Under the pieces are notes generated by a model. The model worked only from the letters and a program-made list of their open reading frames with translations, had not been told where the DNA came from and did not search any database. The translations under genes were made by a program, and so were the position numbers. Shown in pieces: positions 1,246 to 26,494 of a stretch of 64,000 bases of DNA. The stretch is from Patescibacteria group bacterium (GTDB lineage Bacteria; Patescibacteriota; WWE3; UBA101185; UBA10185), in assembly GCA_016926555.1 (NCBI GenBank), contig JAFGOI010000008.1, positions 91,316-155,315 on the forward strand. The letters are read 5' to 3'. Numbering within the stretch: position 1 is the stretch's first letter; the number at the start of each line of letters is the position of its first letter.

Positions 1246-1256
1246 CCATCAATCAA

Positions 1257-1922: not shown

Positions 1923-1926
1923 AAGC

Positions 1927-2493: not shown

Positions 2494-2534
2494 ATATCTA
2501 TATAAATCTTAATTTAGTACAGTTTTGGTGTCAA

Positions 2535-4568
2535 TTATCTCACTATGATATCTTTATTAACTTTTATAATAGTTGTCTTTTCATTCTGAAAAAATACATT
2601 TCCCATAGCGAGAAGTTTGTCCATTTGCATAGAACCATCCGAATAAATGTCTTCTTCTATCTCTCCGACAATAATAAAATCTACATTATACTTACGTAAT
2701 ATCATCTTCGTTTTATTTACATCGTCATCCAAATATACAGATCGTACATCTCTTCTTCTAACATCAACTTCACCATAAGATCCCCGCCACGTCCATTCAT
2801 GAACAGGCCAGCCGACTACCGACGGCCAACCCAATAAAGCACTAAATAGATTATTATCTTCATAACTGTCACCATCCGCTTCAACTATTATTTTCATTTT
2901 CTCTCCACGGTTTTGCATGTCCCTATACTTTTTTAAAAAAGCGTAAGCCTCATAATCATATGGATATTTGCTTTCAAACCAATGCAATCCCTCGTTAATC
3001 CCCTTAAACTCCAAAGACCAACCCTTTGTAACCTTGAAAACAACATAGGGATAATACAACTGAATGGCAAACATGCATATAAATACAGACCCAATTAATA
3101 ATCTATTCACACTTCCTTTCAGCTTTGTTAATACTGCAGCCATAAACGTTCCCGAACAGATACTGAGCCATAACCATACTTGAAATGTGAACTTAAAAAC
3201 GGTATTTGCTCTATAATATTCCCCATCAATTAGGATATCTTTAACAAAAAATAGAATAGAGCAGAATACAAACGACCCCCAGTGCAAAAGCCACTGATTT
3301 AGAGACGTGGGCGTTTTAACGACTCCCAAACCGGCCACTGCACTTTTGTAATAATAACTCCAAATCCTGGAAACCATGACCGCCCCAATTGGTATATAGG
3401 TAAGCACAATAAAAGGTCTCCATATTTTATACACGTTTATGATCCCATCCTGAAACCTAACACGGGTGAAAACAGCTTTCTTTATTTCATACCCATATTT
3501 ATACATAAATAGTATGGAAAATAGTATTCCAAGGGACACCGTATCCCAAGAGTTAGTCATAAAGACTACACCGAATAAGAAACTCAGAAGATACATTTTC
3601 TCGCTTTTGAACGACAAACCAGACTTATTATCAATAAAAATCACATAAAGCAACGCGAAAACTACAACGCTCACAAAAGCCCCCCAAACATGCGCATGTA
3701 AGTCAGACACAAAAAAACCATATACGGGCATCTCCATGATAGTCCCACTCACATACCTTGTAGCCTCCGGATACCAAAAAGAAGGTTTAATTGAAATAAA
3801 GCCCAGGATATACATCAACTTTCCAACCAAATATGTCAATACGTAAATATTTCCTGAGAGAGAATAAAATAGAAACGATGACAAACCCGCTACTGCTACA
3901 ATTCCTCTTCCTTTTTTTAACTGATAATTTAAGTAGATCTCCTTCCCAAGTTGAAATACACTGACACTTAACATACTAAACAGCCAACATACTAAGACAA
4001 AAAACCCCTGTAATAGAGGCACATTAGAGAATTTCAAAATGACATGCCCAATAAAATGGCCAAAATAATAATAATTCCATGATTCTCCTGAAAACCATAC
4101 ATCAGGAAGGGGTAGAGAAGTAGCATTTTCCAGAGTTTGTAGAACACCATAATCGAAAATTCGTTCAATACTGTGTACTTCAGCATTAAACCCGCGTACC
4201 ACGTACCAAAAAAGCATTAACAAAACAATAAAACTTTGGGTCCAGAATATTATCTTTAAACTAAAATTGGTTCTTAAGAACTCGGTCTTTAGTTCAATGG
4301 CCAAATTCACAAGAATCCAGACAATAACACAAAGAAAAAACCACACATCGCCCAATCCAATAAACGTACCAATAATAAAATAAAAATAAGACAAACATAT
4401 CCAACCAAGTATGTGGGCAATTACATATCCTTTGTCATTTAATCTTTTAAAAAAGAGGGATGTAAAAGGCCAACTGACTAAACCTATAAACGTATTGGCC
4501 AGAATCAAAGGCAAAAAATATCTTATCACTTCATCCACTGCAATATCCAGCATGGCAGAATTATACAA
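2535..4568 (-). CDS. Large polytopic membrane protein (~13 predicted TM segments plus ~190-aa C-terminal soluble domain); GT-C-like architecture; function unknown
   Basis: 677 aa. Repeated hydrophobic segments run through aa ~1-480, then a hydrophilic C-terminal domain. It is embedded between pilin genes. No signature motif recognised with confidence. Confidence 0.45.
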   Translation of the reverse strand: MYNSAMLDIAVDEVIRYFLPLILANTFIGLVSWPFTSLFFKRLNDKGYVIAHILGWICLSYFYFIIGTFIGLGDVWFFLCVIVWILVNLAIELKTEFLRTNFSLKIIFWTQSFIVLLMLFWYVVRGFNAEVHSIERIFDYGVLQTLENATSLPLPDVWFSGESWNYYYFGHFIGHVILKFSNVPLLQGFFVLVCWLFSMLSVSVFQLGKEIYLNYQLKKGRGIVAVAGLSSFLFYSLSGNIYVLTYLVGKLMYILGFISIKPSFWYPEATRYVSGTIMEMPVYGFFVSDLHAHVWGAFVSVVVFALLYVIFIDNKSGLSFKSEKMYLLSFLFGVVFMTNSWDTVSLGILFSILFMYKYGYEIKKAVFTRVRFQDGIINVYKIWRPFIVLTYIPIGAVMVSRIWSYYYKSAVAGLGVVKTPTSLNQWLLHWGSFVFCSILFFVKDILIDGEYYRANTVFKFTFQVWLWLSICSGTFMAAVLTKLKGSVNRLLIGSVFICMFAIQLYYPYVVFKVTKGWSLEFKGINEGLHWFESKYPYDYEAYAFLKKYRDMQNRGEKMKIIVEADGDSYEDNNLFSALLGWPSVVGWPVHEWTWRGSYGEVDVRRRDVRSVYLDDDVNKTKMILRKYNVDFIIVGEIEEDIYSDGSMQMDKLLAMGNVFFQNEKTTIIKVNKDIIVR

Positions 4569-4677
4569 TGAAACTCCAACAGCTTACGCAGGTGGTTTCA
4601 AGTTAGGAACTTATGAAAATTGAAGGAGATAGACCTGGGGATCAGACACAAAAGCCGTATAAATCACCCTATTCTCA

Positions 4678-5682
4678 CTACTGCGGAGGCCCAAGGTACC
4701 TATAATGAAAGCAAGCGTATCCATTACGATCTGATTTACAAACATACGGCCATTCACACTCCACTTCACTGGAACCTTTCAAGCCATTATTTTGGCAGTA
4801 GTACTCTACCAAAACATTATTATCACAGTAATCACAAGACTCGCCGGCCGTATCTGTAACACATCCAGGTGTATAGATATCATAACCAGCATCTGTATCC
4901 GTACAAGCTTCAGGCGGGAGAGTTGGGGTTGGTGATGTAAGTAACTCTCTAACGCCACACCTATTATCTAAACATACTACCTCCCTCGGTGGACAGCACC
5001 TATCCATACACCCTGCGGGTACCGAACATTCTACCTTGTCATACCACGCATCTACATACCTAACATTAACAACATCCTCATAATCAAATCCGCCGCACCC
5101 GCTGCACTTGCATGCACATCCTACCGGTTCACATTCTTCAGAACTTTCGCAATATCTCCACCTTTCCTCCTCATCATCGGGGGTTGGAGTAGGTGTTGGC
5201 GAGGGATGTATAACATCTTCTCCTTCCTCATTTTCACAGTCAAACGTAGTAACATCACACGTATCTAAAACACACTGATACGTATCCTGCCACGCAGAGG
5301 TATGTTTGTAACATCCATCCGTAGAATCTTCTAAACTCACCACAAGCCCATAATCGGCGCCATCAGAATTATAAGTATATACTGCACCCTCAGGTTCCCC
5401 ATCGGGCCAATCAGTGATAAAATAAGTTCTAAATTCAGAGGATATATCCGCGATATCACTCGTTGGCGGATATTCTCCTTTGGTTGAATAATAGGATTCC
5501 AAAGCACTTGCTATTTGATTTACATTATTCTCTCTAACTGCGTTTTCGGCTTTTTCTTGAGTGCCACCTATATTTAACAGCCCCATCAAAATGATTCCCA
5601 GAATAGTGATGATTACAATAACCACTAACAGCTCTATTAACGTAAATCCTTTATTTATTTTCCCAAAAACTATCTTTTTCAT
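4678..5682 (-). CDS. Type IV pilin-like protein with PTPTPTP linkers and long Cys-rich C-terminal region
   Basis: NKGFTLIELLVVIVIITILGIIL. Then SPTPTPTPDDEEE, followed by many Cys including a CTDTDAGYD...C...C...C module similar to the 1257..1922 C-terminus. Confidence 0.7.
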   Translation of the reverse strand: MKKIVFGKINKGFTLIELLVVIVIITILGIILMGLLNIGGTQEKAENAVRENNVNQIASALESYYSTKGEYPPTSDIADISSEFRTYFITDWPDGEPEGAVYTYNSDGADYGLVVSLEDSTDGCYKHTSAWQDTYQCVLDTCDVTTFDCENEEGEDVIHPSPTPTPTPDDEEERWRYCESSEECEPVGCACKCSGCGGFDYEDVVNVRYVDAWYDKVECSVPAGCMDRCCPPREVVCLDNRCGVRELLTSPTPTLPPEACTDTDAGYDIYTPGCVTDTAGESCDYCDNNVLVEYYCQNNGLKGSSEVECEWPYVCKSDRNGYACFHYRYLGPPQ

Positions 5683-5687
5683 TCGTA

Positions 5688-6116
5688 CTATTCAATTATA
5701 CAATTTGTGCCGACTTGCGCAAGATCCATTACAGTGGCATCACTAAAATTATATACACATTGAAATTCGCACAGAGCACTACCATCAAGAGTAGGGATTG
5801 CCCCGCTGATAGTTATAGTTGCATCCGCAGTGGCTGCGGATTCAGTAAGCGTAAAGATACTACCCTCCGGAGGATTAGGTGGGTAGGTCACGTTAATATC
5901 ATCCCAAGAGTTACATCTTCTCGCGTCCACCTCACTCGCGCCACACGCTTTCAATGCGTAACACATCGTTTCAGTCATGGATCGCACAACTGCTTCATTG
6001 GCGCGTTGACTCTGCCTATTTGGATCTATAAGCGATACCAAAATACTAGCTAATATACCTATCACAGTAATAACTACTAAAATCTCCACAAGTGTAAAAC
6101 CGTTTTTTCTAATCAT
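5688..6116 (-). CDS. Type IV pilin-like protein
   Basis: RKNGFTLVEILVVITVIGILASIL prepilin motif. 142 aa. Confidence 0.7.
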   Translation of the reverse strand: MIRKNGFTLVEILVVITVIGILASILVSLIDPNRQSQRANEAVVRSMTETMCYALKACGASEVDARRCNSWDDINVTYPPNPPEGSIFTLTESAATADATITISGAIPTLDGSALCEFQCVYNFSDATVMDLAQVGTNCIIE

Positions 6117-6147
6117 AAAACATTTTCAAATTGATATATTTAAAGAT

Positions 6148-6172
6148 AAGGCGGGGCCTGCGGCCCCGCCTT
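6148..6172 (-). terminator. GC-rich hairpin (9-bp stem GGCGGGGCC/GGCCCCGCC, 3-nt loop) downstream of pilin gene 6182..6859
   Basis: aaGGCGGGGCCtgcGGCCCCGCCtt read directly. AT-rich on the 3' side in minus-strand sense. Confidence 0.45.
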
Positions 6173-6181
6173 GATCAATCG

Positions 6182-6859
6182 CTAATTAATATCCACTCTG
6201 GAACAGTTTGCATCGCCTGCGTAAGGATCCGTATCTACTGTCATATCTGTCGGATCAATTCCCGTCGCACCATTGCATTCGTACATACCAAATTCCGAAT
6301 GAATTACATACCACGTATTATTATCTACAACCGCGTCCGGATTTAATTCCCAGGCTTTCCCAATAATCGCAAAACGACCACCTCTCAATGGACCGGATAC
6401 AACCTTGAAGTGACATTGAGCTGTCCCATCTGCGGCCATACTATAGACATGATTAGTTTCGTTTCCAACATACGCCACACATGTGTCAGGCAACAATACA
6501 CTCGGAAAATTAAAATCCACGTCAATCCCTATAGTAGTATCGATTGGGTTATCTGTTGACAGTGGGCTATTTGTGTTTGAGTTCCCAACAACCTCCAGGT
6601 TATTAACCTCCAATAACAATTCATCTTCACATACCATTCTTCCGGTCGCAGAGCGAGCAGAATTTAGTCCATAACCCACTTTTTGCAAGGCAGATCTAAT
6701 TGCAGCATTTCTTGATCTATTCTGTTGTCTTATAGGATCAATTACTGCGATTAGAATACCGGCCAATATACCAATAATTATGATAACAATGAGTAACTCT
6801 ATAAGTGTGAAACCGCTGTCAAGATCTAATCTTGAAGTCTTTCTTTTAACTTCTTTCAT
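6182..6859 (-). CDS. Type IV pilin-like protein
   Basis: DSGFTLIELLIVIIIIGILAGILIAVIDPIRQQNRSRNAAIRSA. Paralog of the 7007..7681 product. Confidence 0.75.
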   Translation of the reverse strand: MKEVKRKTSRLDLDSGFTLIELLIVIIIIGILAGILIAVIDPIRQQNRSRNAAIRSALQKVGYGLNSARSATGRMVCEDELLLEVNNLEVVGNSNTNSPLSTDNPIDTTIGIDVDFNFPSVLLPDTCVAYVGNETNHVYSMAADGTAQCHFKVVSGPLRGGRFAIIGKAWELNPDAVVDNNTWYVIHSEFGMYECNGATGIDPTDMTVDTDPYAGDANCSRVDIN

Positions 6860-6948
6860 TCACTGCTCACCCCCTTCCAAAGCATGTTTTGTAAAAGTTT
6901 CATAAGCAACATAAAAATGGGCAGACAACTATTTGTTGCCTATATACA

Positions 6949-6981
6949 AGTATGAAGTCCAACACGCAGTATGTCAAGGAA
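6949..6981 (-). promoter_or_regulatory. Conserved promoter-like element, copy 1 (gene sense: TTGACA-N17-TTCATACT)
   Basis: Plus strand reads agtatgaa-N16-gtcaagg. One of five copies with an identical 24-nt offset between the two blocks. Lies upstream of pilin 6182..6859. Confidence 0.5.
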
Positions 6982-7006
6982 ATAGAAGTAAAACGAGGTA
7001 TTAACA

Positions 7007-7681
7007 TCAAAGGTCATCGAATCTGTCACAATTGTACCCATTCATTTCTATAGCATAAGAAAAATCCTCAATACTCATATCCGAGGGATCAAGGCCAGAA
7101 GGGGCAGAAGAGCATTCCCACAACCCATCGGAAGAATCAAACACATAATATAAACCATTAGTTAGATCCATATCTGGTGTCAACTCCCATGACTTGGCGA
7201 TAATTCTAAATTTGCCATCTCTTATAGGGCCGGAATTATATTGAAACACACACTGAGTAGTTCCTTCCATCGCGTCATCCCAATTAGTTTCGTTACAGGA
7301 CGATGGAAGTGCTACACCGGGAAAGTCAAATAACACCTCAGTCTCAACCGTTGTATTACCCAAACCGCCGTTTTCCGGATTTGAGCGATAAAGGTCAATT
7401 GTATCGGGGTTTATCACAACATTCTCAGTCTCTGTTTCTATATCGTTTTCATACGGAAGCCGGCCAGTTGAAGAACGCGCAGTATTTATACTGTATGCAA
7501 CTTTTTGAATCGCAGATCTGATAGCCGCATTTCTAGCTCGGTTCTGTTGTCTAATAGGATCTATAACTGCAATTAGAACTGCAGCCAGAATACCTATGAT
7601 TATAATCACTATAAGAAGTTCAATAAGCGTAAATCCACGATCAATAGAATATTTATCTTTCAACCAGTATTTAGACAACAT
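7007..7681 (-). CDS. Type IV pilin-like protein (start moved to internal Met before DRGFTLIELL)
   Basis: MLSKYWLKDKYSIDRGFTLIELLIVIIIIGILAAVLIAVIDPIRQQNRARNAAIRSA. The ORF track extends to 7762, but that region overlaps the upstream gene end and the promoter-like motif. Confidence 0.7.
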   Translation of the reverse strand: MLSKYWLKDKYSIDRGFTLIELLIVIIIIGILAAVLIAVIDPIRQQNRARNAAIRSAIQKVAYSINTARSSTGRLPYENDIETETENVVINPDTIDLYRSNPENGGLGNTTVETEVLFDFPGVALPSSCNETNWDDAMEGTTQCVFQYNSGPIRDGKFRIIAKSWELTPDMDLTNGLYYVFDSSDGLWECSSAPSGLDPSDMSIEDFSYAIEMNGYNCDRFDDL

Positions 7682-7714
7682 AGTTAGGGCAGGCGACCTT
7701 AATTGCCTATATTG

Positions 7715-7747
7715 AGTATGAATTGCACTAGTTATAAAGTCAAGAAA
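7715..7747 (-). promoter_or_regulatory. Conserved promoter-like element, copy 2 (TTGACT variant)
   Basis: agtatgaa-N16-gtcaagaaa with the same 24-nt offset, immediately upstream of the pilin start at 7681. Confidence 0.5.
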
Positions 7748-7761
7748 TAACACCAAGCGCA

Positions 7762-8667
7762 TTAGTCCGCTATGAAAAAGCTATAATCCATAACATCTGG
7801 CATATACGGACGGGATTTGTATACCGACATAATCTTAACCACTCTTTGTTCTGACTCCTCTACTAAATTACCTACCGCAGTTATTTTATAACCCTGCTCT
7901 GGAAGATCACCCACAGAAGGATACACACCAAAATTGGCGCTATTATACATAGACCTTATCCTCAAACCGAATTTTCTGGACGGATTAATCTCCGAGAGAT
8001 CAATTTCGGCACACCAATTAAAACCATCTTTCGCTTCCGCGTTAGCTTGTACAAATCCCCGCATCGACTCAAGTGGGTCATAAAACGCAATAGGGTAGTA
8101 ACCGCCTTTACTTACCATCCCAGCGTCATCATACGCTATATAATATAATGCTGTCTTATCATTATCCCAGCATACATTTATTTTATCGTCTGTATATACA
8201 CCGTTTGAGTCATATAGGGATATTTCCTTTAGCTGACCTGATGTAAGCGCAAATCTGTAATGATCCCCTGAACTTTTACTACTGGAGTTGTATTGAAACT
8301 TCTCTACGGTTACAACAGCTTCAGCTGAAATCTTATCGTAGCCAAGTGGCGGATAATCTACTATACATCCTTGAATCCCTTCTTCATATCTCAAGTTAAT
8401 CAACTCACAGTTTGTTTTATATCTATCGGGATCGGTCACGTCAGAAAGAGCCTCTAGTCTGCAATCACCAGCATTCAAATATCTTTCTATACCTCCTTCT
8501 ACAACAGCTGACAATCTCGCAGCCGTATCAGTGCGAGTCACTCTAGCTGATACAGCCAAACTTCGCGTCGCTATAGATAATCCAATAGTTAGAGCTATAA
8601 CAACAACTACAACTACTCCTAAAAGTACTTGCCCAGATTTATTACGCTTTTTATTTGCAATGTTCAC
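7762..8667 (-). CDS. PilX-like minor pilin/pilus assembly protein (cassette copy 1)
   Basis: N-terminus KSGQVLLGVVVVVVIALTIGLSIATRSLAVSARVTRTDTAARLSAVVEGGIERYL fits the PilX_N-type pattern (QxG, hydrophobic helix, AE-G). Paralog of the 11749..12657 product. Confidence 0.5.
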   Translation of the reverse strand: MNIANKKRNKSGQVLLGVVVVVVIALTIGLSIATRSLAVSARVTRTDTAARLSAVVEGGIERYLNAGDCRLEALSDVTDPDRYKTNCELINLRYEEGIQGCIVDYPPLGYDKISAEAVVTVEKFQYNSSSKSSGDHYRFALTSGQLKEISLYDSNGVYTDDKINVCWDNDKTALYYIAYDDAGMVSKGGYYPIAFYDPLESMRGFVQANAEAKDGFNWCAEIDLSEINPSRKFGLRIRSMYNSANFGVYPSVGDLPEQGYKITAVGNLVEESEQRVVKIMSVYKSRPYMPDVMDYSFFIAD

Positions 8668-11094
8668 TTAAAACGCCCCCTCCGTATCAAATTGAAGATC
8701 AAAAACCCGCAACCCCGTTAAGTGAACATTACAATAATCTGAATCTCTTTCCATCTTAGTAAAGTTTGGTATAAATGACGGATTGTATTTAACTGATTCT
8801 GCAGGATACATGTCATTTTCAACTCCTAAATCCCTAGTAAATAATATTTTCTTTGCAACTAACGGTCCTGTTAATAAGACTGGATAATCCGGCGGGGTAG
8901 GGTAGTTCTCTATCCTTATTTCCCCACTTGTGAGAAACCCTGCTTCCACATTTGAATCAGCTTGCAAATAATACCCATCTTGTGATCCATAAGACGTATA
9001 GCCTACATTAGGGTATACATGTACATTTGTGTCAGTAACAATAAACAAACATCCCGAATTCGTGCTGGGAATACGCATAATGTCGTCACGCACCTCTAAA
9101 TCCGATCCGTTGCCCTCAACATATATAACAGCATCTCCATTGACCAAATTATACTTTACAGGCCCTAAGTTAAAATCATCATTAAAATCCTGACTATTCA
9201 TTTTATGTACACCGCCAGCAATTACCTCACTAATATCAGATATCGCTCTTACATAGGCATGAGAAGGAGCAGAGAATGAAAACCTCGAATTATACCAATT
9301 CGAAATCATACCTGTATTTTCCGCGTAACCGCAATTATCAGCATTAGAAGGACACGCGCTGGTATCCGTATAATTTTCGGCATATGAATGAGCAAACGCA
9401 TCGCTAATACCATTGCCAGGATCCGAAAATTGCATTAATGAGCCATAAAATCCACCTCCCAACTCCTGCCCAGAAGAAACAACCTGTATATCGATCTCTT
9501 TAGAATACACATCACCATCTATAGAGGTATACCAAGGAGATACCTGTTCTTTAAATAGATCAACTAAAACTGGCACTCTCCCACACGAAATCGGAGTTAC
9601 ATTAATCTGCGTGGAAACACCTCCGCCAATAAACTCGTCTTCAACGCAATTAATTCGAAATAATGAGGTGCCCGGCGAATAAAATGTACTTACATTAAAT
9701 GTGTTAGAAGATGAGATTATATTATCAAATCCAACATGCCCGTTTTCAACACCATCCGAATCATCAGATGACCCATCAACTATAGTTCTAGAAGCACCCC
9801 CATCCGCATCCTGAACAGTAATAGAAACACCTCTGGCCTCTCCATTATCACTTGCACAATCCCCATAGTCGGATTCATTAACATAAAACTCTAGCATATA
9901 GTCGTAAATAACATTTATAAGACGTTCGTGCACACAAACTGTCGTATCATATCCATCTGATATATCCACTCTCACGTCACATAATTCACTATTATCTGGT
10001 TGAGAATGCACGGGGGGTAACCATACTACTGAAGGATCCGATCCTAAAACTACATTGCCATTCGGAAAACTTCCGTTGCATCCCAATGATGGATCACTAC
10101 AAGATTCACAGCTAACACTCCATGTATAAGTCATATTCCCAACACTACTCACATTCATACCATCGGCGTTGTTAATAGATAATACTATATTGCCGTCACA
10201 CATATTTACATCAATCTTATATCGGGAATCCCCCGGTTCCCACCAAGCGGTTTCATCACCGACTACAAAATCACCACAACTAGGCGGACAATTGATTATC
10301 ACAGGAACAGATAAACATAAATCAGTGGTAGTTACACCACTATCCTCTAAATATACCGCAGTTCCGATTTCACACACTTTCCCACAAGCACTCCCTTCCG
10401 GAGCAGTCCAAAAAAACGGATTAGAATTTCCACTTATACTCCCACACGAGGCTGTATGCTCATATTTAAAGGAGGGTGGGGGAGTAGGACCTTCTATATT
10501 TGAATATAACTCATATGTCCGCCCTGCAGCAGCTCTAAAAGTTCCTGAAGAATCCGCATTGGGAAATACAATATTTGAGCAATCGTAGACATCTATCTCA
10601 AACAAATCGGCGGTATCCTTTTTACCATCTGATGAGGAAAATGAAATCTGTCGGGTTCCGAAACCAATCGAATTATAAATCGCGCCGGTACAGTCAGCAC
10701 CAGAAAATCCTCCCTTATCAGAATCATCACCCCAATAGCATGATAAAGTGTCGCCATCTGGGTCCGAAGAAGAAGAATTTAAACGAACTGAAGAGTTTGA
10801 CATTATCTTTGCGGGACCGGAGTCTATTGAGCTCGCCGGAGCTTTATTTGGCTTAGTACAACTACCCTCGCAACTACAGACTTTTAAATCCCAGGTACTT
10901 TTAACGCAACTCCAATCTTTATTTCCGCCACTTCCATCACAATCATCATTATGACACACCCAACAACTTCCATCGTCAAAACAACCCCACTGATTGTACT
11001 CAAAACATTCACACTCAACCGCATAAGACAACCCAGAAACCACTAATAGAAGTGAAATAATCACTATCAATGTGGGCAGCTTTTTAAATTTCAC
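8668..11094 (-). CDS. Large secreted Cys-rich protein, candidate pilus-associated adhesin (PilY1-like position; cassette copy 1)
   Basis: 808 aa. Signal peptide MKFKKLPTLIVIISLLLVVSGLSYA, Cys-rich N-terminus, DPDGD/DSDG acidic motifs and conserved blocks (PPVHSQPDNSELCDV; TIVDGSSDDSDGVENG; FSD...DAFAH) shared with the 12660..15221 product. Flanked by PilX-like and small membrane protein genes. Confidence 0.5.
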   Translation of the reverse strand: MKFKKLPTLIVIISLLLVVSGLSYAVECECFEYNQWGCFDDGSCWVCHNDDCDGSGGNKDWSCVKSTWDLKVCSCEGSCTKPNKAPASSIDSGPAKIMSNSSVRLNSSSSDPDGDTLSCYWGDDSDKGGFSGADCTGAIYNSIGFGTRQISFSSSDGKKDTADLFEIDVYDCSNIVFPNADSSGTFRAAAGRTYELYSNIEGPTPPPSFKYEHTASCGSISGNSNPFFWTAPEGSACGKVCEIGTAVYLEDSGVTTTDLCLSVPVIINCPPSCGDFVVGDETAWWEPGDSRYKIDVNMCDGNIVLSINNADGMNVSSVGNMTYTWSVSCESCSDPSLGCNGSFPNGNVVLGSDPSVVWLPPVHSQPDNSELCDVRVDISDGYDTTVCVHERLINVIYDYMLEFYVNESDYGDCASDNGEARGVSITVQDADGGASRTIVDGSSDDSDGVENGHVGFDNIISSSNTFNVSTFYSPGTSLFRINCVEDEFIGGGVSTQINVTPISCGRVPVLVDLFKEQVSPWYTSIDGDVYSKEIDIQVVSSGQELGGGFYGSLMQFSDPGNGISDAFAHSYAENYTDTSACPSNADNCGYAENTGMISNWYNSRFSFSAPSHAYVRAISDISEVIAGGVHKMNSQDFNDDFNLGPVKYNLVNGDAVIYVEGNGSDLEVRDDIMRIPSTNSGCLFIVTDTNVHVYPNVGYTSYGSQDGYYLQADSNVEAGFLTSGEIRIENYPTPPDYPVLLTGPLVAKKILFTRDLGVENDMYPAESVKYNPSFIPNFTKMERDSDYCNVHLTGLRVFDLQFDTEGAF

Positions 11095-11682
11095 TTACAA
11101 AGGTTCTCCATAACAAGTTAGCTTTACTAATCCATTATCAGTCTTATCAACCGATATTTCAATATAATCCCCCGGATCAAGTATTTCTAGTATTTGGGGC
11201 GCACTAAAAAATTCCAGAAGATTAAAGGAATTTAAAGCAGTACCATTTTCCTTTTGTAATCGTCTCACCTCTAAAAACTCAAAATCAAACGATCTTATAA
11301 AAACATACGAGCCATCTTTTAAAATTACCTTCCCGCTACTTACATCTATCTCTTGTATATATCCATCATAAATTTTTTTATCGGAACTGCGCAACTTCCC
11401 GGGGCCAGTAAAAGGTTTGTATTCAGACAAGCACTCATCCAAATAGTATTTTGAGGGTCTAACTAACCATCCATCCTTCTTTTCTTCGGGCTCAAATTCA
11501 AATGAGTCCTCGTCTAAAGCAGAGACACTTTCGTGCACAGAATCGGGATAAATGCCTTCCACTAGTTCCAGCTCCTCTTCATCTTCTTTTAACAAATCCG
11601 GAAGGTATATATAGACCAAAGTGCCTAGAACAAAAAAACAAGAAATAACCATAAAAAAACCGGGCAGTGATTTTGTGTCCAT
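11095..11682 (-). CDS. Small N-terminally membrane-anchored protein (cassette copy 1), function unknown
   Basis: 195 aa. Single N-terminal hydrophobic segment FFMVISCFFVLGTLVYIYL. Positional and weak sequence paralog of the 15311..15907 product. Confidence 0.5.
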   Translation of the reverse strand: MDTKSLPGFFMVISCFFVLGTLVYIYLPDLLKEDEEELELVEGIYPDSVHESVSALDEDSFEFEPEEKKDGWLVRPSKYYLDECLSEYKPFTGPGKLRSSDKKIYDGYIQEIDVSSGKVILKDGSYVFIRSFDFEFLEVRRLQKENGTALNSFNLLEFFSAPQILEILDPGDYIEISVDKTDNGLVKLTCYGEPL

Positions 11683-11693
11683 ATATTGTACTC

Positions 11694-11726
11694 AGTATGA
11701 ATTCCTAAAAAATCGCTGTCAAGAAA
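11694..11726 (-). promoter_or_regulatory. Conserved promoter-like element, copy 3
   Basis: agtatgaa-N16-gtcaagaaaaa. Gene-sense TTTTTCTTGACA-N17-TTCATACT, 11 nt upstream of the ATG at 11682. Confidence 0.55.
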
Positions 11727-11748
11727 AATTTCCGCACGACAAGGATAG

Positions 11749-12657
11749 CTAGAAGGAACCATTCGTGAATATCGCGTAATCAAAAACATCGGGTAAATAT
11801 GGGTACGATCTATATACTGTAACCACTTTAACTGTTTTTTCCTCTGATTCCTCACTAAGCTCCCCCACAGACACTATTCTGTAACCCTGGGAAGTAAGGG
11901 ATCGCGAAGGACTTGGATACAACCCAAAAGTCGCATGATCATATAATGCCCTTAGTCTTAAACCGTAATACTGATTATTTTGTAGTTCCGCCAACGGGAT
12001 TGTCGCACACCATGTATATCCATCCCTGGAAACACTGCTTGCCTGTTCAAAACCCCGCATGGAGTCTAGCGGGTCAACAAACGCCCGCGGGTAGAATCCA
12101 CCCCTTGTTATATTACCTCTAGTGTCATAAGCAACATAATAAATAGCTGTGTTATCGTTATCCCAGCAAACATCAATCTCATTATTCCCATATGTATGTG
12201 TGCCATCGGTCAAAGGCAGTTCTTTCATCTGACCCGCATTCAACACAAACCTATAATGATTTTCATCATCAACGGCGGAATTATAGTCAAATTCCTCAAC
12301 AGTTACTATAGCTCTTGTTGCTATCTTATCATCTCCCTGAGGAGGAAAGTTCACAACACAACCTTCAATTCCCTCTACATATTCCATATTAGCATCATCG
12401 CAATATTGTTCATAACGATCCGCATCTGTAGTATCGGCAAAAGACCTTAGGCGACAGTCGTTTATAACCAGAAATCTTTCGGCGCCGCCTTCAACTGCCG
12501 CTATAAGTCTGGAAGCAGTGTCCGTACGAGATACCCTCGAAGACATGGATAATGTCCTTGTGGATATAGAAACTCCAACCGCCAATGCCACAGTAACCGC
12601 CACAACTACAGAAAGCAGTACTTGGCCTTTTTGTTTTTTAATAAACCTAATCATCAC
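11749..12657 (-). CDS. PilX-like protein (cassette copy 2)
   Basis: QKGQVLLSVVVAVTVALAVGVSISTRTLSMSSRVSRTDTASRLIAAVEGGAERF. Also shares RGFEQAS...DGYTWCATIPLAEL with the 7762..8667 product. Confidence 0.5.
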   Translation of the reverse strand: MMIRFIKKQKGQVLLSVVVAVTVALAVGVSISTRTLSMSSRVSRTDTASRLIAAVEGGAERFLVINDCRLRSFADTTDADRYEQYCDDANMEYVEGIEGCVVNFPPQGDDKIATRAIVTVEEFDYNSAVDDENHYRFVLNAGQMKELPLTDGTHTYGNNEIDVCWDNDNTAIYYVAYDTRGNITRGGFYPRAFVDPLDSMRGFEQASSVSRDGYTWCATIPLAELQNNQYYGLRLRALYDHATFGLYPSPSRSLTSQGYRIVSVGELSEESEEKTVKVVTVYRSYPYLPDVFDYAIFTNGSF

Positions 12658-12659
12658 AT

Positions 12660-15221
12660 TTAGTCTCCGTATGTAAATTGAACATCAAACATCCCAAGAC
12701 CAGTAAAATCTATATCACAGTAAGTTGGGTCTCTCTCTTCTCTTGTTAGATAGTAGAGAAAATCAGTACTATACTTTGTCGCCACCGCAGGATACATATC
12801 ATTGTCTAACACAAGATTACGATTGAAAGTAATGTTCTCAGCGACTAGCGGTCCTTGGAGAAGAAGAGGTATATCCGGCGGAGTCGCGGCACCTTCTATG
12901 TTAATAGTTCCGCTTGTAATTATACCTGCCTCAATATTAGGTCTCGCTTGAAGATTATACCCGCCAACACCGTAGGTAGCGTACCCAACCGATGCGTCAA
13001 TATTGACATCCGCGTCAGTTATAATCAACAAGTCATCGCTGTAAGTACTACTGTTCATATATCTGTGAATTGGCAAAGAAATATCAAGAGTAGAACCGCC
13101 ACTAGGTACGTACAAAATGCCAGCTTCTCTACGTCTGACTATAGTCGGCACATATCCAAGAGAACCCCATCTTGTAAACTCGGAGTTGAATCTTGAGGCA
13201 GTCATCGTGTTCACAACACTCCTATCATCAGACCAATCCCAGTTAACCTCATACAAATAACTCACAGTATTTACTTCAGAATGTGTCGGGGGCTGAAATG
13301 TATATACATTATCAAACCATTCGGATCTCATTGAAGTGTTTTTCGCAAAACCGCAGTGGTCAGCCTCGGGAGAGCACATCGCGGTATCTACAGCATTCTC
13401 ACTAAGAGTATGTGCGAACGCATCGTCAACGTGACTTGAAACATCTGAGAACTGCAATAACGAACCTACAAAACCATCTCCCAACTCCTCACCCGCACAC
13501 ACTACATCAGTATCCAAAGAATTTGCGTACACATCCCCATCAATGGCTATCTCCCATGAATTGAGCTCTTCCTCAAACAACTCAATATCCAAAGGTATAA
13601 CACCACAACCGCTTGGAGTTACACTTATCTGGGCAGACACACCGCCCCCTACAACTTCTCCCGGCACACAATTAAGATGCCATCGCGCACATTCAGGAGA
13701 GTAAAACACATCAACATTAAATGTATGAGATGATGACCGGATAGCGTCAAAAAGAATCTTACCATTTTCTGTTCCATCGGAATCACTCCCAGAACCATCA
13801 ACAATTGTATAAACCCTAGAATTACTAACATCCCTATACGTTATAGAAACACCATCCGCAGTACCTTGGTGATCATCACAATCCTCATATGGTGTCTCAA
13901 ACACATTGAACTCAAGCTGATATGTATATGTAATATTAACAAAATCGGTATAAACTTCTGAGTTGCTTTCAAACCCATCAAAAACCGTAACAACTACATC
14001 GCATTTTTCGGAATTATCAGACTGAGAATGAACAGGAGCCCTCCATAATATCTCTGCATTAGGCATGGTACTGACATTGCCGCTGGGAAAAGTCCCATTA
14101 TCACCCGAGTCACAATATACATTCCACGTATAGACCAGATGCTCGGTATCTCCCGGGTCAGGATCATCAGCTCCATACCCTGGACGGGTCATACTTTGCA
14201 TCGTAAATACCTCGTCGCCATCACAAGCATTAACATCATGTGTAAATATACTAAATGGAAAATAGTTTTGGCCATTAACATACGGCCATCCAAGAACAGG
14301 GAGCCTATTTATTAAAACATCCGCTCGTTGACACCAATTTGTCGTATTATTAACATGCGCCCTTGATCTCACCCTGCATGTTTCACCTCTATGAGTCTCA
14401 TCCGGAGAAGTCCAAACAAACGGACTGACATCCCGGCCACCTATTATCCCGCATGTTGAATCATCCGGCGCTAGGGCATCATTTGTATAAGTAAATGTAG
14501 GCGGATTCGGGGGACCCTCTATTGTTGTGTTGACAATATAGTTGTGCGTTCCAGTTTCGGGGGATTGAGGAACCGCTCTTGGTTTTCCAAGCCAGTCAAA
14601 AGCTTTATAACCTGAAACATCTGAGGTTGGCCAATCAACACTTTCACAATCATAAACATCTATTGTATAGGGACACTCAGCTGTTTTTCCCCCTCGGCTT
14701 TCAGCATGATTTATAATACTCACATTCCCATGATTCTGCGTAGTATGGTTATAAACCGCGGAGTTGCAATCCGCGCCCGTACTAAAATCCCCATTATCCG
14801 GATCATCTCTCCATGTACATGTTACAGTATCACCATCTGAATCTGAGGCAGAAGATGTATACGTAATACCAGATGAATTCGCCATTATATCCTGGACACC
14901 CACCGGAGTAGTACAGGTTGGAGGATGGTTCGTGGGCGGACTTCCTTTACTACAAGGGCAATGGCAATGGCAGGGAGGGTTGGGCGCTGCACATGTTGTT
15001 GGCTCATTAACAAGAATTCCTGTTGAACTACAACACCAACATTCGTCACCAGGGCAATCAGCACCGCAGTCGCAACTATAACATGTCTGACCTTCCCCGG
15101 GGCACGAATCACTTTTACTCATACAACTCGCGGCATATACATCTTCATTTAGACCAATATATAAAGTAGCAAAGAGGGACAAAAACAAAATTTTAAATAC
15201 AAAAGGCAGATTCTTTTTCAT
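12660..15221 (-). CDS. Large secreted Cys-rich protein, candidate adhesin (cassette copy 2)
   Basis: 853 aa. Signal peptide, then Cys/His-rich N-terminus (CHCHCPCS) and blocks shared with the 8668..11094 product across its full length. Confidence 0.5.
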   Translation of the reverse strand: MKKNLPFVFKILFLSLFATLYIGLNEDVYAASCMSKSDSCPGEGQTCYSCDCGADCPGDECWCCSSTGILVNEPTTCAAPNPPCHCHCPCSKGSPPTNHPPTCTTPVGVQDIMANSSGITYTSSASDSDGDTVTCTWRDDPDNGDFSTGADCNSAVYNHTTQNHGNVSIINHAESRGGKTAECPYTIDVYDCESVDWPTSDVSGYKAFDWLGKPRAVPQSPETGTHNYIVNTTIEGPPNPPTFTYTNDALAPDDSTCGIIGGRDVSPFVWTSPDETHRGETCRVRSRAHVNNTTNWCQRADVLINRLPVLGWPYVNGQNYFPFSIFTHDVNACDGDEVFTMQSMTRPGYGADDPDPGDTEHLVYTWNVYCDSGDNGTFPSGNVSTMPNAEILWRAPVHSQSDNSEKCDVVVTVFDGFESNSEVYTDFVNITYTYQLEFNVFETPYEDCDDHQGTADGVSITYRDVSNSRVYTIVDGSGSDSDGTENGKILFDAIRSSSHTFNVDVFYSPECARWHLNCVPGEVVGGGVSAQISVTPSGCGVIPLDIELFEEELNSWEIAIDGDVYANSLDTDVVCAGEELGDGFVGSLLQFSDVSSHVDDAFAHTLSENAVDTAMCSPEADHCGFAKNTSMRSEWFDNVYTFQPPTHSEVNTVSYLYEVNWDWSDDRSVVNTMTASRFNSEFTRWGSLGYVPTIVRRREAGILYVPSGGSTLDISLPIHRYMNSSTYSDDLLIITDADVNIDASVGYATYGVGGYNLQARPNIEAGIITSGTINIEGAATPPDIPLLLQGPLVAENITFNRNLVLDNDMYPAVATKYSTDFLYYLTREERDPTYCDIDFTGLGMFDVQFTYGD

Positions 15222-15243
15222 CTTACTAACACCTTAGCACTTA

Positions 15244-15276
15244 GTATGAATGGCCAACTCTTTACTGTCAAGAAAA
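15244..15276 (-). promoter_or_regulatory. Conserved promoter-like element, copy 4
   Basis: Gene-sense TTTTTTCTTGACAGTAAAGAGTTGGCCATTCATACT, followed by AAGGTG (SD-like) and the ATG at 15221. Confidence 0.55.
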
Positions 15277-15310
15277 AATATTAGGAAAAATTGCACAGCA
15301 CGATTCAAAT

Positions 15311-15907
15311 TTATCTCTCGTCACAATAAACATCCATCCTGACATATCCATCAGAATCGAGCACAAATGTAGCAAAATCGCCGGAATTTATATAGTTTAG
15401 AAAAGCAGGGGATTCCTCCTCCAATTTTAGAGTATACACATTTGTTTCGAGACTTTCAGTTGTTTGAACAAGATAAACCAACAAATCAGCGACAAAGACC
15501 TCCTCACCATTCTTTAGCACAAGTGACCCATTATCTACATTTACCGACTCTATAAAAGAATGCAAACGATCTCCCACCCGTGCATAACCCACTTCCGGCA
15601 TTTCACCCGGTTTATAGTCCGACACACATTTATCTATATCTTCTCCGCTCAACTGATTACCGGACCCATCCCGAGCTGTATAGGAAATATAATCAGAGAA
15701 CGCGGACTTACTCGGATCCGACGACAAATCTCCACTTTGATCTTTATCAATCAGGTCAGATTTTGTGTCTGCAGGAATGTCAGAGGACCCGCTGTCTTTC
15801 AAAACAGGTCTTCTAACATTAACACCTTTTGTGACAAAATAAACTGCAAGTAGAATCACACACAAAACCGAGGCTATAATAACAAAAGGTAGAAACTTTT
15901 TATTCAT
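15311..15907 (-). CDS. Small N-terminally membrane-anchored protein (cassette copy 2); start moved to Met of MNKKFLPFVII
   Basis: The promoter-like copy 5 overlaps the upstream part of the track ORF, so the true start is most likely 15907. Hydrophobic segment FVIIASVLCVILLAVYFV. Confidence 0.5.
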   Translation of the reverse strand: MNKKFLPFVIIASVLCVILLAVYFVTKGVNVRRPVLKDSGSSDIPADTKSDLIDKDQSGDLSSDPSKSAFSDYISYTARDGSGNQLSGEDIDKCVSDYKPGEMPEVGYARVGDRLHSFIESVNVDNGSLVLKNGEEVFVADLLVYLVQTTESLETNVYTLKLEEESPAFLNYINSGDFATFVLDSDGYVRMDVYCDER

Positions 15908-15926
15908 ACACTTATATCTAGCTTTT

Positions 15927-15959
15927 AGTATGAACGGAGTAGTATTTGTTGTCAAGATA
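15927..15959 (-). promoter_or_regulatory. Conserved promoter-like element, copy 5
   Basis: Gene-sense TTATCTTGACAACAAATACTACTCCGTTCATACT, 19 nt upstream of the ATG at 15907. Confidence 0.55.
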
Positions 15960-15978: not shown

Positions 15979-16407
15979 TTAACCGACAAATGATTTTATT
16001 TCGTCCAGAATTTTATCAGGAGTGATCTCGGATTTAATAAGATAACCAGACGCACCCAATTTGAAAGCTTCATCAATAATATGTTCGCTGTTAAGATTGG
16101 TGAGAACAATAACTGGCCCTTTCTTAATATCCTTCGTATCTTTAATCTCTTTTAGAATTCTAATTCCGTCTTTAACAGGCAGGATCACATCAAGTAGCAG
16201 GAGATCCCATACCTCATTTTGAATCATTTCAAGACCAATGTTGCCATCCGAAGCCTGTAGTACTTCGTAACCTGCATCCATCAATATCTCAGCATAAAGT
16301 AAGCGTATATCGTGCTCATCCTCAACTATAAGAATAGTCTTCTTCGGCGGATTAAGTGTCACCATACTAGTTATAATAGTAACACATTTAGTAGGGGAGT
16401 TTGTCAA
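15979..16407 (-). CDS. Single-domain response regulator (CheY-like receiver only)
   Basis: ILIVEDEHDIRLLYAEIL...LLLLDVILP...LTNL...GYLIKS. 142 aa, no output domain. Confidence 0.85.
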   Translation of the reverse strand: MTNSPTKCVTIITSMVTLNPPKKTILIVEDEHDIRLLYAEILMDAGYEVLQASDGNIGLEMIQNEVWDLLLLDVILPVKDGIRILKEIKDTKDIKKGPVIVLTNLNSEHIIDEAFKLGASGYLIKSEITPDKILDEIKSFVG

Positions 16408-16421
16408 TAGTATCTTTTGTA

Positions 16422-16811
16422 CTACTTTAAAACCCGTTTCACTTCGTTTAAGATCTTATCCGGAGTAATATCCGATTTTACGATGTATCCGGTTGCACCT
16501 AGCTTATACGCCTCATCTGGCACGTGATCACTCTTGAGATTGGTGAGCAGAATTATGGGACCTTTTTGTAAGCATTCCGAATCCCTAAGATCCTTCAGTA
16601 TCGCCATCCCATCTTTCTCGGGTAATATTACATCCAATAACAGAACGTCCCAGTTTTCGTTTTGGATTTTCTCTTTTCCCTCATTTCCATTTACTGCCTG
16701 GATTACGATGTAACCTGCATCAGTTAGGATTTCTGCGTAGAGTAGGCGAATGTCTTTTTCGTCTTCTACAAGAAGTATTGCACGCTTTTTATTATCCTTG
16801 GATCCGATCAT
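16422..16811 (-). CDS. Single-domain response regulator (CheY-like), tandem paralog
   Basis: ILLVEDEKDIRLLYAEILTDAGY...LLLDVILPEKDG...LTNL...GYIVKS. 129 aa. Confidence 0.85.
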   Translation of the reverse strand: MIGSKDNKKRAILLVEDEKDIRLLYAEILTDAGYIVIQAVNGNEGKEKIQNENWDVLLLDVILPEKDGMAILKDLRDSECLQKGPIILLTNLKSDHVPDEAYKLGATGYIVKSDITPDKILNEVKRVLK

Positions 16812-25590: not shown

Positions 25591-25816
25591 GGTTCAAAAA
25601 GATTTGCATAGGGAACTCGGGACCGTTATATATAGATTTGTAAGCTAAATAGATCGAACTCGAGAAGGGACTCCAAATAGAATATCTGTATTGATTCATC
25701 TGATAAATCATTCATATAAACATAAATGCCCGAGTCATCCCGGGCATTTAGTAATCACTTTCGATTAGCTGCCACAATTGCACCCTTTAGATGTATCACA
25801 TTAAAGAAACTTAAAA

Positions 25817-25843: not shown

Positions 25844-25896
25844 AGTAATTTGCAATTCAGACAGACAACTGCAAATCTGAGCATCGAAGATACAGA

Positions 25897-26394: not shown

Positions 26395-26494
26395 TCCCTG
26401 TCACCCCCTCTCGAAAATTTTTATCTTTTATGACTTGAATCCCTGGCCAGCGAGTGACTCAAATCCGATAAAAAATAAATTTCATACATTAATA

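What the first reader, a model, noticed from the sequence alone, without database searches (positions are those of the whole stretch)
7762..15955. Tandemly duplicated three-gene pilus-adhesin cassette (membrane-anchored protein, ~800-aa secreted Cys-rich protein, PilX-like protein)
Two adjacent cassettes have the same gene order and paralogous members (195/214 aa, 808/853 aa, 301/302 aa). The large proteins carry signal peptides, Cys-rich N-termini (for example CHCHCPCS), acidic DxDGD motifs and conserved blocks along their full length, but differ at most positions. The 301/302-aa proteins have a PilX_N-like N-terminus. In Pseudomonas/Neisseria the minor-pilin operon encodes PilX next to the large tip adhesin PilY1/PilC. 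Here an analogous arrangement lies directly beside eight pilin genes. Divergent duplicated tip adhesins would be a plausible basis for host or surface specificity in a T4P-dependent, possibly episymbiotic, small-genome bacterium. The large proteins show no similarity I can recognise by eye to PilY1, so this may be an undescribed adhesin family.
Basis: partly seen in the sequence, partly recalled or inferred. Interest (0 to 1): 0.8.

Follow-up and report, generated by a model that had tools for sequence, protein, structure and literature searches.

The report
Duplicated pilus-tip adhesin gene cassette
An uncultivated ultrasmall (Patescibacteria/WWE3-like) bacterium carries two diverged copies of a three-gene module at the head of its type IV pilin operon. 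The module encodes a membrane-anchored helper, a large secreted protein with a variable binding end, and a cap-type pilin-like protein, and it most likely puts exchangeable adhesins on the pilus tip.

Summary
Two tandem cassettes (small TM protein, 853/808-aa secreted protein, 302/301-aa protein) lie at 7762-15955 on the minus strand, directly upstream of eight prepilin genes. Paralog identities are 27, 41 and 54%.

- **No curated family:** none of the six proteins matches Pfam, NCBIfam or PHROGs.
- **302/301-aa proteins:** these form a Patescibacteria family with an invariant Gly-Gln, a hydrophobic 54-residue helix without Glu5, and a jelly-roll head. That is a PilX/GspK-type cap pilin by architecture, although Pfam PilX_N is not met.
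- **Large proteins:** these belong to a rare family (81 representatives) defined only by a module at the extreme C-terminus. It is modelled as an ice-binding-protein-like beta-solenoid, and Thermus ComZ is among the best fold matches. The N-terminal parts are Cys-rich and variable, carrying PKD, TSP1, Ig-like or CBM domains.
- **Synteny:** in at least 22 independent loci the large gene sits directly upstream of the PilX-like gene and a pilin array.
- **Copy number:** it varies from 0 to 2, and the duplications arose independently.

Best reading: a pilus-tip priming and adhesin module in which the solenoid "plug" is a separate secreted protein. This is a new variant of the ComZ / PilX-solenoid / PilY1 theme. 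It rests on computation only, and the physical association is untested.

The parts
15311..15907 (-). Cassette B small gene. It encodes a bitopic membrane protein with an N-terminal TM helix, an acidic/Ser-rich linker and a C-terminal domain of about 110 aa. The ORF extends to a TTG at 15955, but the likely start is the ATG at 15907 (198 aa).
   Evidence: A TM-anchored protein of 180-280 aa occupies the same position upstream of the large gene in most related loci, but its sequence is barely conserved.
12660..15221 (-). Cassette B large secreted protein (853 aa). Parts: Sec signal peptide (about 15129-15221); Cys-rich region (about 14910-15128); divergent PKD-like domain (about 14637-14909); a poorly modelled variable region; and two Ig-like/transthyretin-like beta-sandwiches (about 13566-14144).
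12663..13565 (-). Conserved C-terminal module of large protein B (about aa 553-853). It is a beta-solenoid ending in the family motif ...GPLVA..I.F.R.L...N..YPA...KY......LT..ER....TGL..FDVQF.Y. This is the defining domain of the family.
11749..12657 (-). Cassette B PilX/GspK-type pilin-like protein (302 aa). It has a short basic leader, an invariant Gly11-Gln12, a hydrophobic segment without Glu5 that continues as a 54-residue helix, a jelly-roll/CBM-like beta-sandwich head, and a conserved C-terminal tail (PYLPxxFDYAIF) that is not confidently modelled.
11095..11682 (-). Cassette A small bitopic membrane protein (195 aa). Its stop codon abuts the start of large gene A.
8668..11094 (-). Cassette A large secreted protein (808 aa). 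It has the same architecture as large protein B. The C-terminal solenoid module lies at about 8671-9543.
   Evidence: A3c HMM, E 9e-101.
7762..8667 (-). Cassette A PilX/GspK-type pilin-like protein (301 aa). Its start abuts the stop of large gene A. It is the faster-diverging copy.
15927..15955 (-). Promoter-like motif TTGACA-N17-CATACT upstream of small gene B. It is one of five copies in the window. The others are at 15243-15271 (before large gene B), 11694-11722 (before small gene A), 7715-7743 and 6949-6977 (before the first two pilin genes).
   Evidence: 5 matches against 0.03 expected, and none elsewhere in the 64 kb. Searches show 44-nt extended similarity. Function was not tested.
17..7762 (-). 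Downstream array of eight prepilin genes, all with G|FTLIELL-type class III signals. It is interrupted by a DUF2298 membrane protein gene (2535-4568). The operon runs off the start of the window.
15979..16811 (-). Two receiver-only response regulator genes immediately upstream of the cassette. The same neighbours occur in related loci.
24631..30521 (-). Type IV pilus machinery of the same locus: PilD peptidase (24631-25590), a pilin (25897-26394), PilC/T2SSF (26495-27697), a PilT-like ATPase (27694-28761) and PilB (28758-30521).

Best explanation
Each cassette encodes a pilus-tip (priming) module for the single type IV pilus machinery of this Patescibacteria (WWE3-like) cell.

- **Cap subunit:** the 30x-aa protein is a PilX/GspK-type pilin-like subunit. 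It lacks Glu5, so nothing can be added above it. It is therefore assembled first and ends up at the tip.
- **Large protein:** it is exported by Sec and is never a pilin itself. It docks on that cap through its conserved C-terminal beta-solenoid module. The solenoid plays the 'tip plug' role that is built into the pilin in Thermus ComZ and cyanobacterial PilX, and that the PilY1/PilC propeller provides in Proteobacteria.
- **Binding end:** the disulfide-rich, variable N-terminal part (Cys knot, PKD-like and Ig-like domains) is displayed outward as the binding end.
- **Small protein:** the bitopic membrane protein probably holds or chaperones the large protein at the membrane until it is loaded.
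- **Two cassettes:** two diverged cassettes, each preceded by copies of the same promoter-like motif, would give two alternative tips with different binding specificities.

Shown: paralogy, family membership, predicted folds, conserved gene order, copy-number variation. Inferred: physical docking, tip location, adhesin function, and the role of the small protein.
For: 1. **Gene order.** The large gene (C-module HMM) lies immediately upstream of, and often abuts or overlaps, the PilX-like gene. This holds in 12 of 12 genome loci, in L001, in a JGI contig and in 8 of 8 evaluable metagenome loci. Wherever enough downstream sequence is held, prepilin genes follow, with pilMNO after them on the longest contigs. 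In the window the junctions are 0-5 nt.
2. **Cap-pilin features of the PilX-like family.** It has an invariant G-Q before the hydrophobic helix and no Glu at +5 in any of 22 members. AF2 gives a continuous helix 10-63 plus a beta-sandwich. All eight neighbouring true pilins hit N_methyl while these proteins do not. JGI and UniRef name relatives PilX. The published rule is that PilX/GspK lack Glu5 and cap the filament (bioRxiv 10.64898/2026.02.12.705559).
3. **The C-module.** It is the only part conserved across 81 representative proteins and it always lies at the extreme C-terminus. A minimal member of 325 aa is essentially module only.
5. **Variable regions.** Those of family members carry PKD, TSP1, CarboxypepD_reg, Big, SdrD_B, CBM60, fn3 and SpaA domains. 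31 of 45 have at least 6 Cys in residues 21-120.
6. **Copy number.** It ranges from 0 to 2 and the duplications are independent (window; L009; two large genes in L008).
7. **Promoter-like motif.** A motif specific to this region precedes both cassettes and the first two pilin genes.
8. **Precedent.** In cultivated Saccharibacteria, large PilX proteins without a PilD signal are candidate tip proteins, and PilX2 is needed for host binding (PMC11623550).
Against: - There is no direct evidence of interaction or tip location, and no complex prediction could be run.
- The N-terminal 330 residues of the large protein are poorly modelled, so the binding end is inferred from composition, profile hits and relatives.
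- One lineage (L003/L004) has the PilX-like gene without any large gene, so the large protein is not obligatory for piliation.
- The small proteins are not demonstrably homologous across genera.
Confidence: 0.55

Rival explanations
1. The large proteins are cell-envelope adhesins or surface-layer components that do not depend on the pilus. The conserved C-terminal solenoid would anchor them to the wall or membrane, possibly through the small TM protein. The genes would be merely co-located and co-regulated with the pilus genes.
For: - Sec signal peptide and no pilin N-terminus in any of the 81 family members.
- A membrane-anchored partner gene sits upstream.
- A conserved anchor at the C-terminus with a variable N-terminus is the usual layout of wall-anchored adhesins.
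- The Ig-like domains resemble Gram-positive surface proteins.
Against: - Tight and often overlapping adjacency to the PilX-like gene in at least 22 loci.
- No known wall-anchoring motif (LPXTG, SLH, LysM).
- The best T4P-related fold match is the tip pilin ComZ.
- The promoter-like motif is shared with pilin genes.
Confidence: 0.2
2. The module is a ComZ-like DNA receptor. The solenoid protein together with the PilX-like pilin would form the tip of a competence pilus that captures extracellular DNA for nucleotide-auxotrophic Patescibacteria.
For: - ComZ is among the top fold matches.
- ComZ binds DNA and a neighbouring minor pilin (PMC6561018).
- Patescibacteria couple T4P with competence systems (PMC6744442).
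Against: - The variable N-terminal regions with PKD, TSP1, CBM and Ig-like domains, and the recurrent duplication and divergence, fit recognition of a diverse ligand (surface or host) better than DNA binding.
- There is no sequence similarity to ComZ.
- The ComZ DNA-binding lysines lie between its pilin and solenoid domains. That arrangement does not exist here, because the two parts are separate proteins.
Confidence: 0.1
3. The solenoid module is an enzyme, such as a polysaccharide lyase or hydrolase or a wall-degrading activity. The large proteins would then be secreted or pilus-delivered host-cell-wall-attacking enzymes rather than adhesins.
For: - Beta-solenoids are common in lyases and tailspikes, as the ComZ paper notes.
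- CBM60 and other glycan-binding domains occur in relatives.
Against: - There is no Pfam, NCBIfam or PHROG enzyme match.
- The nearly invariant residues are mostly hydrophobic, Gly or Pro, which points to a structural role.
Confidence: 0.08

Closest known systems
ComZ of Thermus thermophilus (PDB 6QVI), with its partner minor pilin PilA2
   Different: In ComZ the solenoid is inserted into the pilin domain of a single polypeptide. Here the solenoid is the C-terminal module of a separate Sec-secreted protein that is never fused to a pilin and that carries long variable Cys-rich/PKD/Ig-like extensions. There is no sequence similarity. ComZ binds DNA, and no such evidence exists here.
Cyanobacterial PilX homologs with a beta-solenoid 'tip plug' (bioRxiv 10.64898/2026.02.12.705559)
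   Same: The logic is the same: lineages without PilY1/PilC use a solenoid attached to the Glu5-less cap pilin, and different priming complexes specialise the filament.
   Different: There the solenoid is part of PilX itself. Here it is on a neighbouring, separately secreted protein, and the PilX-like head is a jelly-roll instead.
PilX-PilY1 (Pseudomonas, Myxococcus) and PilC (Neisseria) tip complexes
   Same: In both, a non-pilin protein with a Sec signal, a conserved C-terminal docking domain and a variable N-terminal adhesive or sensing part is encoded next to the cap minor pilin. Multiple diverged paralogous sets occur in one genome, as in Myxococcus (established knowledge).
PilX1 and PilX2 of Nanosynbacter lyticus TM7x (Saccharibacteria)
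   Same: These are Patescibacteria pilin-like proteins without a PilD signal, with a lollipop helix and an added beta-jelly-roll (PilX1, lectin/CBM-like) or propeller (PilX2). They are candidate tip proteins, and PilX2 contributes to host binding (PMC11623550). The window 301/302-aa proteins have the PilX1-type architecture.
   Different: Sequence homology to TM7x PilX1 was not tested. No separate large solenoid protein partner is described for TM7x.
GspK, the type II secretion pseudopilus cap
   Different: The GspK insert is alpha-helical, whereas the head here is a beta-jelly-roll. There is no sequence match.

Membership tests
Pfam PilX_N (PF14341), for the 301/302-aa proteins | Significant match to the PilX N-terminal HMM | tested here: not met
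   No hit at E<=1 for either window protein. Only 2 of 22 family members match, at E about 0.3. Precomputed Pfam is '-' for all 54 relatives.
Cap-type minor (pseudo)pilin of the PilX/GspK class | Gly at -1, followed by a hydrophobic alpha1-N that lacks Glu5 | tested here: met
   Gly11-Gln12 is invariant in 22 sequences. Position +5 is S/G/A/F/L/I and never E.
Cap-type minor (pseudo)pilin of the PilX/GspK class | Lollipop fold: an alpha1 helix of about 50 residues packed on a beta-sheet head | tested here: inconclusive
Cap-type minor (pseudo)pilin of the PilX/GspK class | Incorporated at the filament tip, with processing by PilD | not testable with these tools
   This needs pilus proteomics and N-terminal sequencing. 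A PilD gene is present at 24631-25590.
Type IV prepilin (Pfam N_methyl, PF07963) | Class III signal G|(F/M)TLxE | tested here: not met
   The motif is absent from the 301/302-aa proteins and from the large and small proteins. It is present above cutoff in all eight downstream pilins and in 25897-26394.
PilY1/PilC tip adhesins, for the 808/853-aa proteins | C-terminal seven-bladed beta-propeller (PilY1/PilC domain) | tested here: not met
PilY1/PilC tip adhesins, for the 808/853-aa proteins | Non-pilin secreted protein encoded next to the cap minor pilin, with a conserved C-terminus and a variable N-terminus | tested here: met
   This is a functional analogy only.
ComZ-type solenoid tip pilin | Ice-binding-protein-like triangular beta-solenoid | tested here: met
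ComZ-type solenoid tip pilin | Solenoid inserted into a pilin domain of the same polypeptide | tested here: not met
   None of the 81 C-module proteins has a pilin-type N-terminus or a PilX-like (A4) domain.
Ice-binding / DUF3494 family | Sequence match to the family | tested here: not met
   No Pfam hit at E<=1. Profile searches of PDB sequences find no ice-binding protein.
PKD domain, for the N-terminal region of the large proteins | Match to PKD-type Ig-like domain profiles | tested here: inconclusive
   There is no direct Pfam hit. However, profile positions 95-205 of the two paralogs retrieve multi-PKD repeat proteins (E down to 6e-23). Pfam confirms these as PKD/K319L-PKD/Big_9. The family profile also hits PKD domains in the PDB weakly (E 7e-4 to 0.01). 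AF2 confidence in this region is low.

The most novel reading that the evidence does not exclude
The cassette is a 'split ComZ': a plug-and-play tip system in which a universal docking module (the C-terminal solenoid) clips onto a dedicated Glu5-less cap pilin. The conserved but unmodelled C-terminal tail of the PilX-like protein may take part in that docking. Any N-terminal binding domain could then be mounted on the pilus tip. Cassette duplication with separate promoters would let an episymbiotic cell switch or combine host specificities. If so, these genes would be the host-range determinants of WWE3-type Patescibacteria.
Probability: 0.3. Interest if true: 0.8.

Novelty: new variant of a known kind. 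Interest (0 to 1): 0.62.

Why it matters
How ultrasmall episymbiotic Patescibacteria recognise and bind their hosts is largely unknown. The only experimental handle so far is PilX2 of one cultivated Saccharibacterium (PMC11623550).

This finding defines three linked items with no Pfam or NCBIfam model: a solenoid C-module, a PilX-like cap pilin family and a positional TM partner. Together they form a conserved module at the head of the pilin operon in WWE3-like genomes. The module carries exactly the features expected of a specificity determinant: modular, disulfide-rich, fast-diverging binding ends, and recurrent duplication.

It also extends the emerging rule that lineages without PilY1 use a solenoid as tip plug. 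Here the plug is a separate secreted protein. That makes the idea of exchangeable pilus tips testable by complex prediction, pull-downs and metaproteomics.

Tried and rejected
- **Family libraries:** Pfam, NCBIfam and PHROGs scans of all six proteins found nothing significant.
- **Word-indexed homolog search:** with the 853-aa protein it found only the protein itself. The exhaustive profile search was needed to find relatives.
- **PDB sequence profiles:** the searches with A2 and A5 found nothing significant; A3 found only weak PKD-domain matches and nothing for the C-terminal module.
- **Foldseek against the PDB:** the 302-aa model gave only matches with TM below 0.25.
- **afdb50:** the library was not available.
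- **The search for related loci:** the large-protein alignments A3 and A5 failed because no stretch was conserved enough. The PilX-like alignment A2 was used instead for both the genome and metagenome scans.
- **dN/dS between cassettes:** synonymous sites are saturated, so the test says nothing.
- **Small TM proteins:** an iterative profile search to unify them across loci used a database of 10 sequences that is too small and is probably driven by the TM helix, so I do not claim homology.
- **Rosetta-stone test:** a search for a fused pilin-plus-solenoid protein found none among 81 proteins.
- **Disordered docking strand idea:** I considered that the extreme C-terminal motif of the large protein is a disordered docking strand. 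Its pLDDT is 74-84, so this is not supported. Only the tail of the PilX-like protein is both conserved and unmodelled.
- **Phage origin:** rejected, with no PHROG hits.


Full report
**Observation**

The six ORFs are present on the minus strand exactly as described. In the direction of transcription, cassette B is:
- 15311-15955: small protein.
- 12660-15221: 853 aa.
- 11749-12657: 302 aa.

Cassette A is:
- 11095-11682: 195 aa.
- 8668-11094: 808 aa.
- 7762-8667: 301 aa.

The paralogy is unambiguous:

| Pair | Identity | E-value |
|---|---|---|
| Large (853/808 aa) | 41% | 3e-172 |
| 302/301 aa | 54% | 2e-114 |
| Small (214/195 aa) | 27% | 8e-10 |

Synonymous sites are saturated (pS about 0.74). 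The duplication is therefore old and dN/dS cannot be used.

Both large proteins begin with Sec-type signal peptides followed by a Cys-rich stretch, and they contain SDxDGD motifs. NCBI annotated the 853-aa gene from Met113 (741 aa), which hides the signal peptide and the Cys-rich part. Three things support the long form: the alignment with the paralog, an AAGGTG box 9 nt upstream of the ATG, and a promoter-like motif.

**Genomic setting**

Directly downstream lie eight genes that all carry the prepilin N_methyl motif above Pfam's cutoff. A DUF2298 membrane protein gene interrupts this array. Upstream are two receiver-only response regulators. Further on are a GAF histidine kinase, PilD, a ninth pilin, PilC, a PilT-like ATPase and PilB. 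The cassette is therefore embedded in the organism's type IV pilus locus. The proteins are recorded in NCBI as 'Patescibacteria group bacterium' (JXA34 locus tags), and their nearest relatives are from candidate division WWE3 MAGs.

**The 301/302-aa proteins**

No curated family matches. Homolog searches define a Patescibacteria family of at least 54 clusters, none with a precomputed Pfam domain. JGI calls one member 'Tfp pilus assembly protein PilX', and a UniRef name begins 'Type 4 fimbrial bio...'.

The alignment shows a short basic leader, an invariant Gly-Gln, a hydrophobic segment of about 20 residues with no Glu at +5 in any member, and a conserved TDT...AAAEGGAER stretch. AF2 (pLDDT 78.8) gives one continuous helix over residues 10-63 and a beta-sandwich head. 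The conserved C-terminal tail (PYLPxxFDYAIF) is not confidently placed.

By architecture, then, this is a Glu5-less cap-type pilin-like protein. It has the class of PilX/GspK and the layout described for TM7x PilX1, a lollipop plus a jelly-roll with no PilD signal (PMC11623550). It is not a demonstrable member of PF14341.

A second, older paralog class of about 270 aa sits at the distal end of the pilin array, just before pilM, in related genomes. In the window that position lies beyond coordinate 1.

**The large proteins**

The exhaustive profile search found 143 proteins in two classes.
- 81 proteins, from 78-aa fragments to 1308 aa, match only the C-terminal part of the profile. The match always ends within 14 residues of their C-terminus.
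- Multi-repeat PKD proteins match profile positions 95-205. This identifies a divergent PKD-like domain near the N-terminus of the window proteins.

Only one other full-length relative exists: P0014 (852 aa), probably the 852-aa protein encoded next to P0004 on a JGI contig.

Across the family the regions N-terminal of the module are unrelated. They are built from adhesin-type domains: PKD, TSP1, CarboxypepD_reg, Big, SdrD_B, CBM60, fn3 and SpaA. They usually start with a Cys-rich stretch (31 of 45). Minimal members are little more than a signal peptide plus the module (for example 325 aa in L028).

- No PilY1/PilC propeller appears.

ComZ is a GspK-like pilin with an inserted ice-binding-protein-like solenoid. 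It has been argued to sit at the pilus tip and to bind the neighbouring minor pilin PilA2 (PMC6561018). A 2026 preprint reports the same solenoid in cyanobacterial PilX and proposes that it replaces PilY1 as the tip plug. Sequence profiles detect no relation to ComZ or ice-binding proteins, so the link is at fold level only.

**Conserved synteny and copy number**

I used HMMs of the C-module and of the PilX-like family on every locus fetched. The large gene lies immediately upstream of the PilX-like gene in:
- 12 of 12 GTDB genome loci.
- L001 and a JGI contig.
- 8 of 8 evaluable metagenome loci.

Where the held sequence continues downstream, arrays of prepilin genes follow, and on the longest contigs pilMNO comes after them.

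Exceptions:
- L003/L004: the PilX-like gene follows the response regulator directly, with no large gene.
- L027: no C-module was detected in the 330 nt available upstream.

Copy number varies:
- None in L003/L004.
- One in most loci.
- Two large genes with one PilX-like gene in L008.
- Two full cassettes in L009 and in the window.

In a neighbour-joining tree the window's two PilX-like copies pair with each other, as do the two from L009. The duplications therefore arose independently. A partial relative, P0003, is 74% identical to the 302-aa copy but only 54% to the 301-aa copy. The window duplication thus predates that split, and copy A is the faster-evolving one.

A TM-anchored protein of 180-280 aa precedes the large gene in most loci. 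Its sequence is barely conserved, so only its position and architecture can be claimed. None of the 81 C-module proteins is fused to a pilin or to a PilX-like domain.

**Regulatory signal**

The motif TTGAC(A/T)-N17-CATACT occurs five times on the minus strand, and only there in the 64 kb (0.03 expected). The copies lie before small gene B, large gene B, small gene A and the first two pilin genes. They show extended similarity over 44 nt. This suggests the transcription units [small B], [large B-pilX B], [small A-large A-pilX A] and [pilins], all under common control. Function was not tested.

**Mechanism proposed**

The steps, with their status:
- The Glu5-less PilX-like protein primes and caps the pilus (inferred from class rules).
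- The Sec-exported large protein docks on it through the C-terminal solenoid and acts as the tip plug. This is inferred from strict gene pairing, the exclusive conservation and terminal position of the module, and the ComZ-type fold.
- The variable disulfide-rich N-terminal part is the exposed ligand-binding end. This is inferred from domain content and variability.
- The small membrane protein is a loading factor or chaperone (weak inference).
- Two diverged cassettes give two alternative tips.

Rivals:
- A pilus-independent envelope adhesin (0.2).
- A ComZ-like DNA receptor (0.1).
- A solenoid enzyme (0.08).

**Comparison and novelty**

The system works like PilX-PilY1 and like ComZ or cyanobacterial PilX, but it is a member of none of them. 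The propeller is absent. The solenoid is not part of a pilin. Pfam PilX_N and the ice-binding family are not met by sequence.

I rate it a new variant of a known kind: a tip module in which the solenoid plug is a separate secreted, modular adhesin paired with a dedicated cap pilin. No paper in the searched library describes this pair in Patescibacteria.

All functional statements rest on computation. The decisive test is complex prediction or pull-down of the C-module with the PilX-like protein, together with localisation on sheared pili.

Noticed in passing
window 6949-6977, 7715-7743, 11694-11722, 15243-15271, 15927-15955 (minus strand): A promoter-like motif TTGAC(A/T)-N17-CATACT, with 44-nt extended similarity, occurs five times in the 64-kb window against 0.03 expected. 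All copies lie upstream of cassette genes and the first two pilin genes. This suggests a dedicated regulon. Some starts would be nearly leaderless.
   Followed up: partly
window 2535-4568 (minus strand): A 677-aa polytopic DUF2298 membrane protein gene sits inside the prepilin array. It may be a pilin-modifying (glycosylating) enzyme.
   Followed up: no
window 17-814, 1257-1922, 4678-5682 (minus strand): Three of the prepilins are modular. Each has a pilin domain, a Pro/Thr-rich linker (PTPTPT...) and a Cys-rich C-terminal module with a shared C.D.DGG motif. Pfam recognises only the N_methyl signal.
   Followed up: partly
window 12660-15221 (minus strand): The public NCBI annotation (JXA34_03005, 741 aa) starts at Met113 and so omits the signal peptide and the Cys-rich N-terminus. 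That would hide the secreted nature of the protein.
   Followed up: yes
window 15979-16811 (minus strand) and 23182-24612 (plus strand); also L001, L003 and the JGI contig: One or two receiver-only response regulators, and in the window and L003 also a GAF-HisKA histidine kinase, are conserved neighbours of the cassette and pilin operon. This may be a PilG/PilH-like control of the pilus.
   Followed up: partly
L001 14837-15664; L008 15609-16421; L009 9706-10521; L013 14796-15617; L014 13419-14240; L018 4736-5572: A second, anciently diverged paralog class of the PilX-like family (about 270 aa, AVAEA instead of AAAEGG) sits at the distal end of the pilin array, in L001 and L018 directly before pilM. 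These operons therefore encode two Glu5-less cap-type proteins. The corresponding position lies outside the window.
   Followed up: partly
L028 1857-2834; P0033 (303 aa): Minimal members of the large-protein family consist of little more than a signal peptide, a short Cys-rich stretch and the C-terminal module. This argues that the module is the core function and the long N-terminal parts are add-ons.
   Followed up: partly
L006 (contig CAZLZR010000144.1, labelled uncultured Acetivibrio sp.): A 6-kb contig carrying the Patescibacteria-type gene pair (large gene followed by PilX-like gene) is binned in a Firmicutes MAG. This is probably a mis-binned contig rather than horizontal transfer.
   Followed up: no
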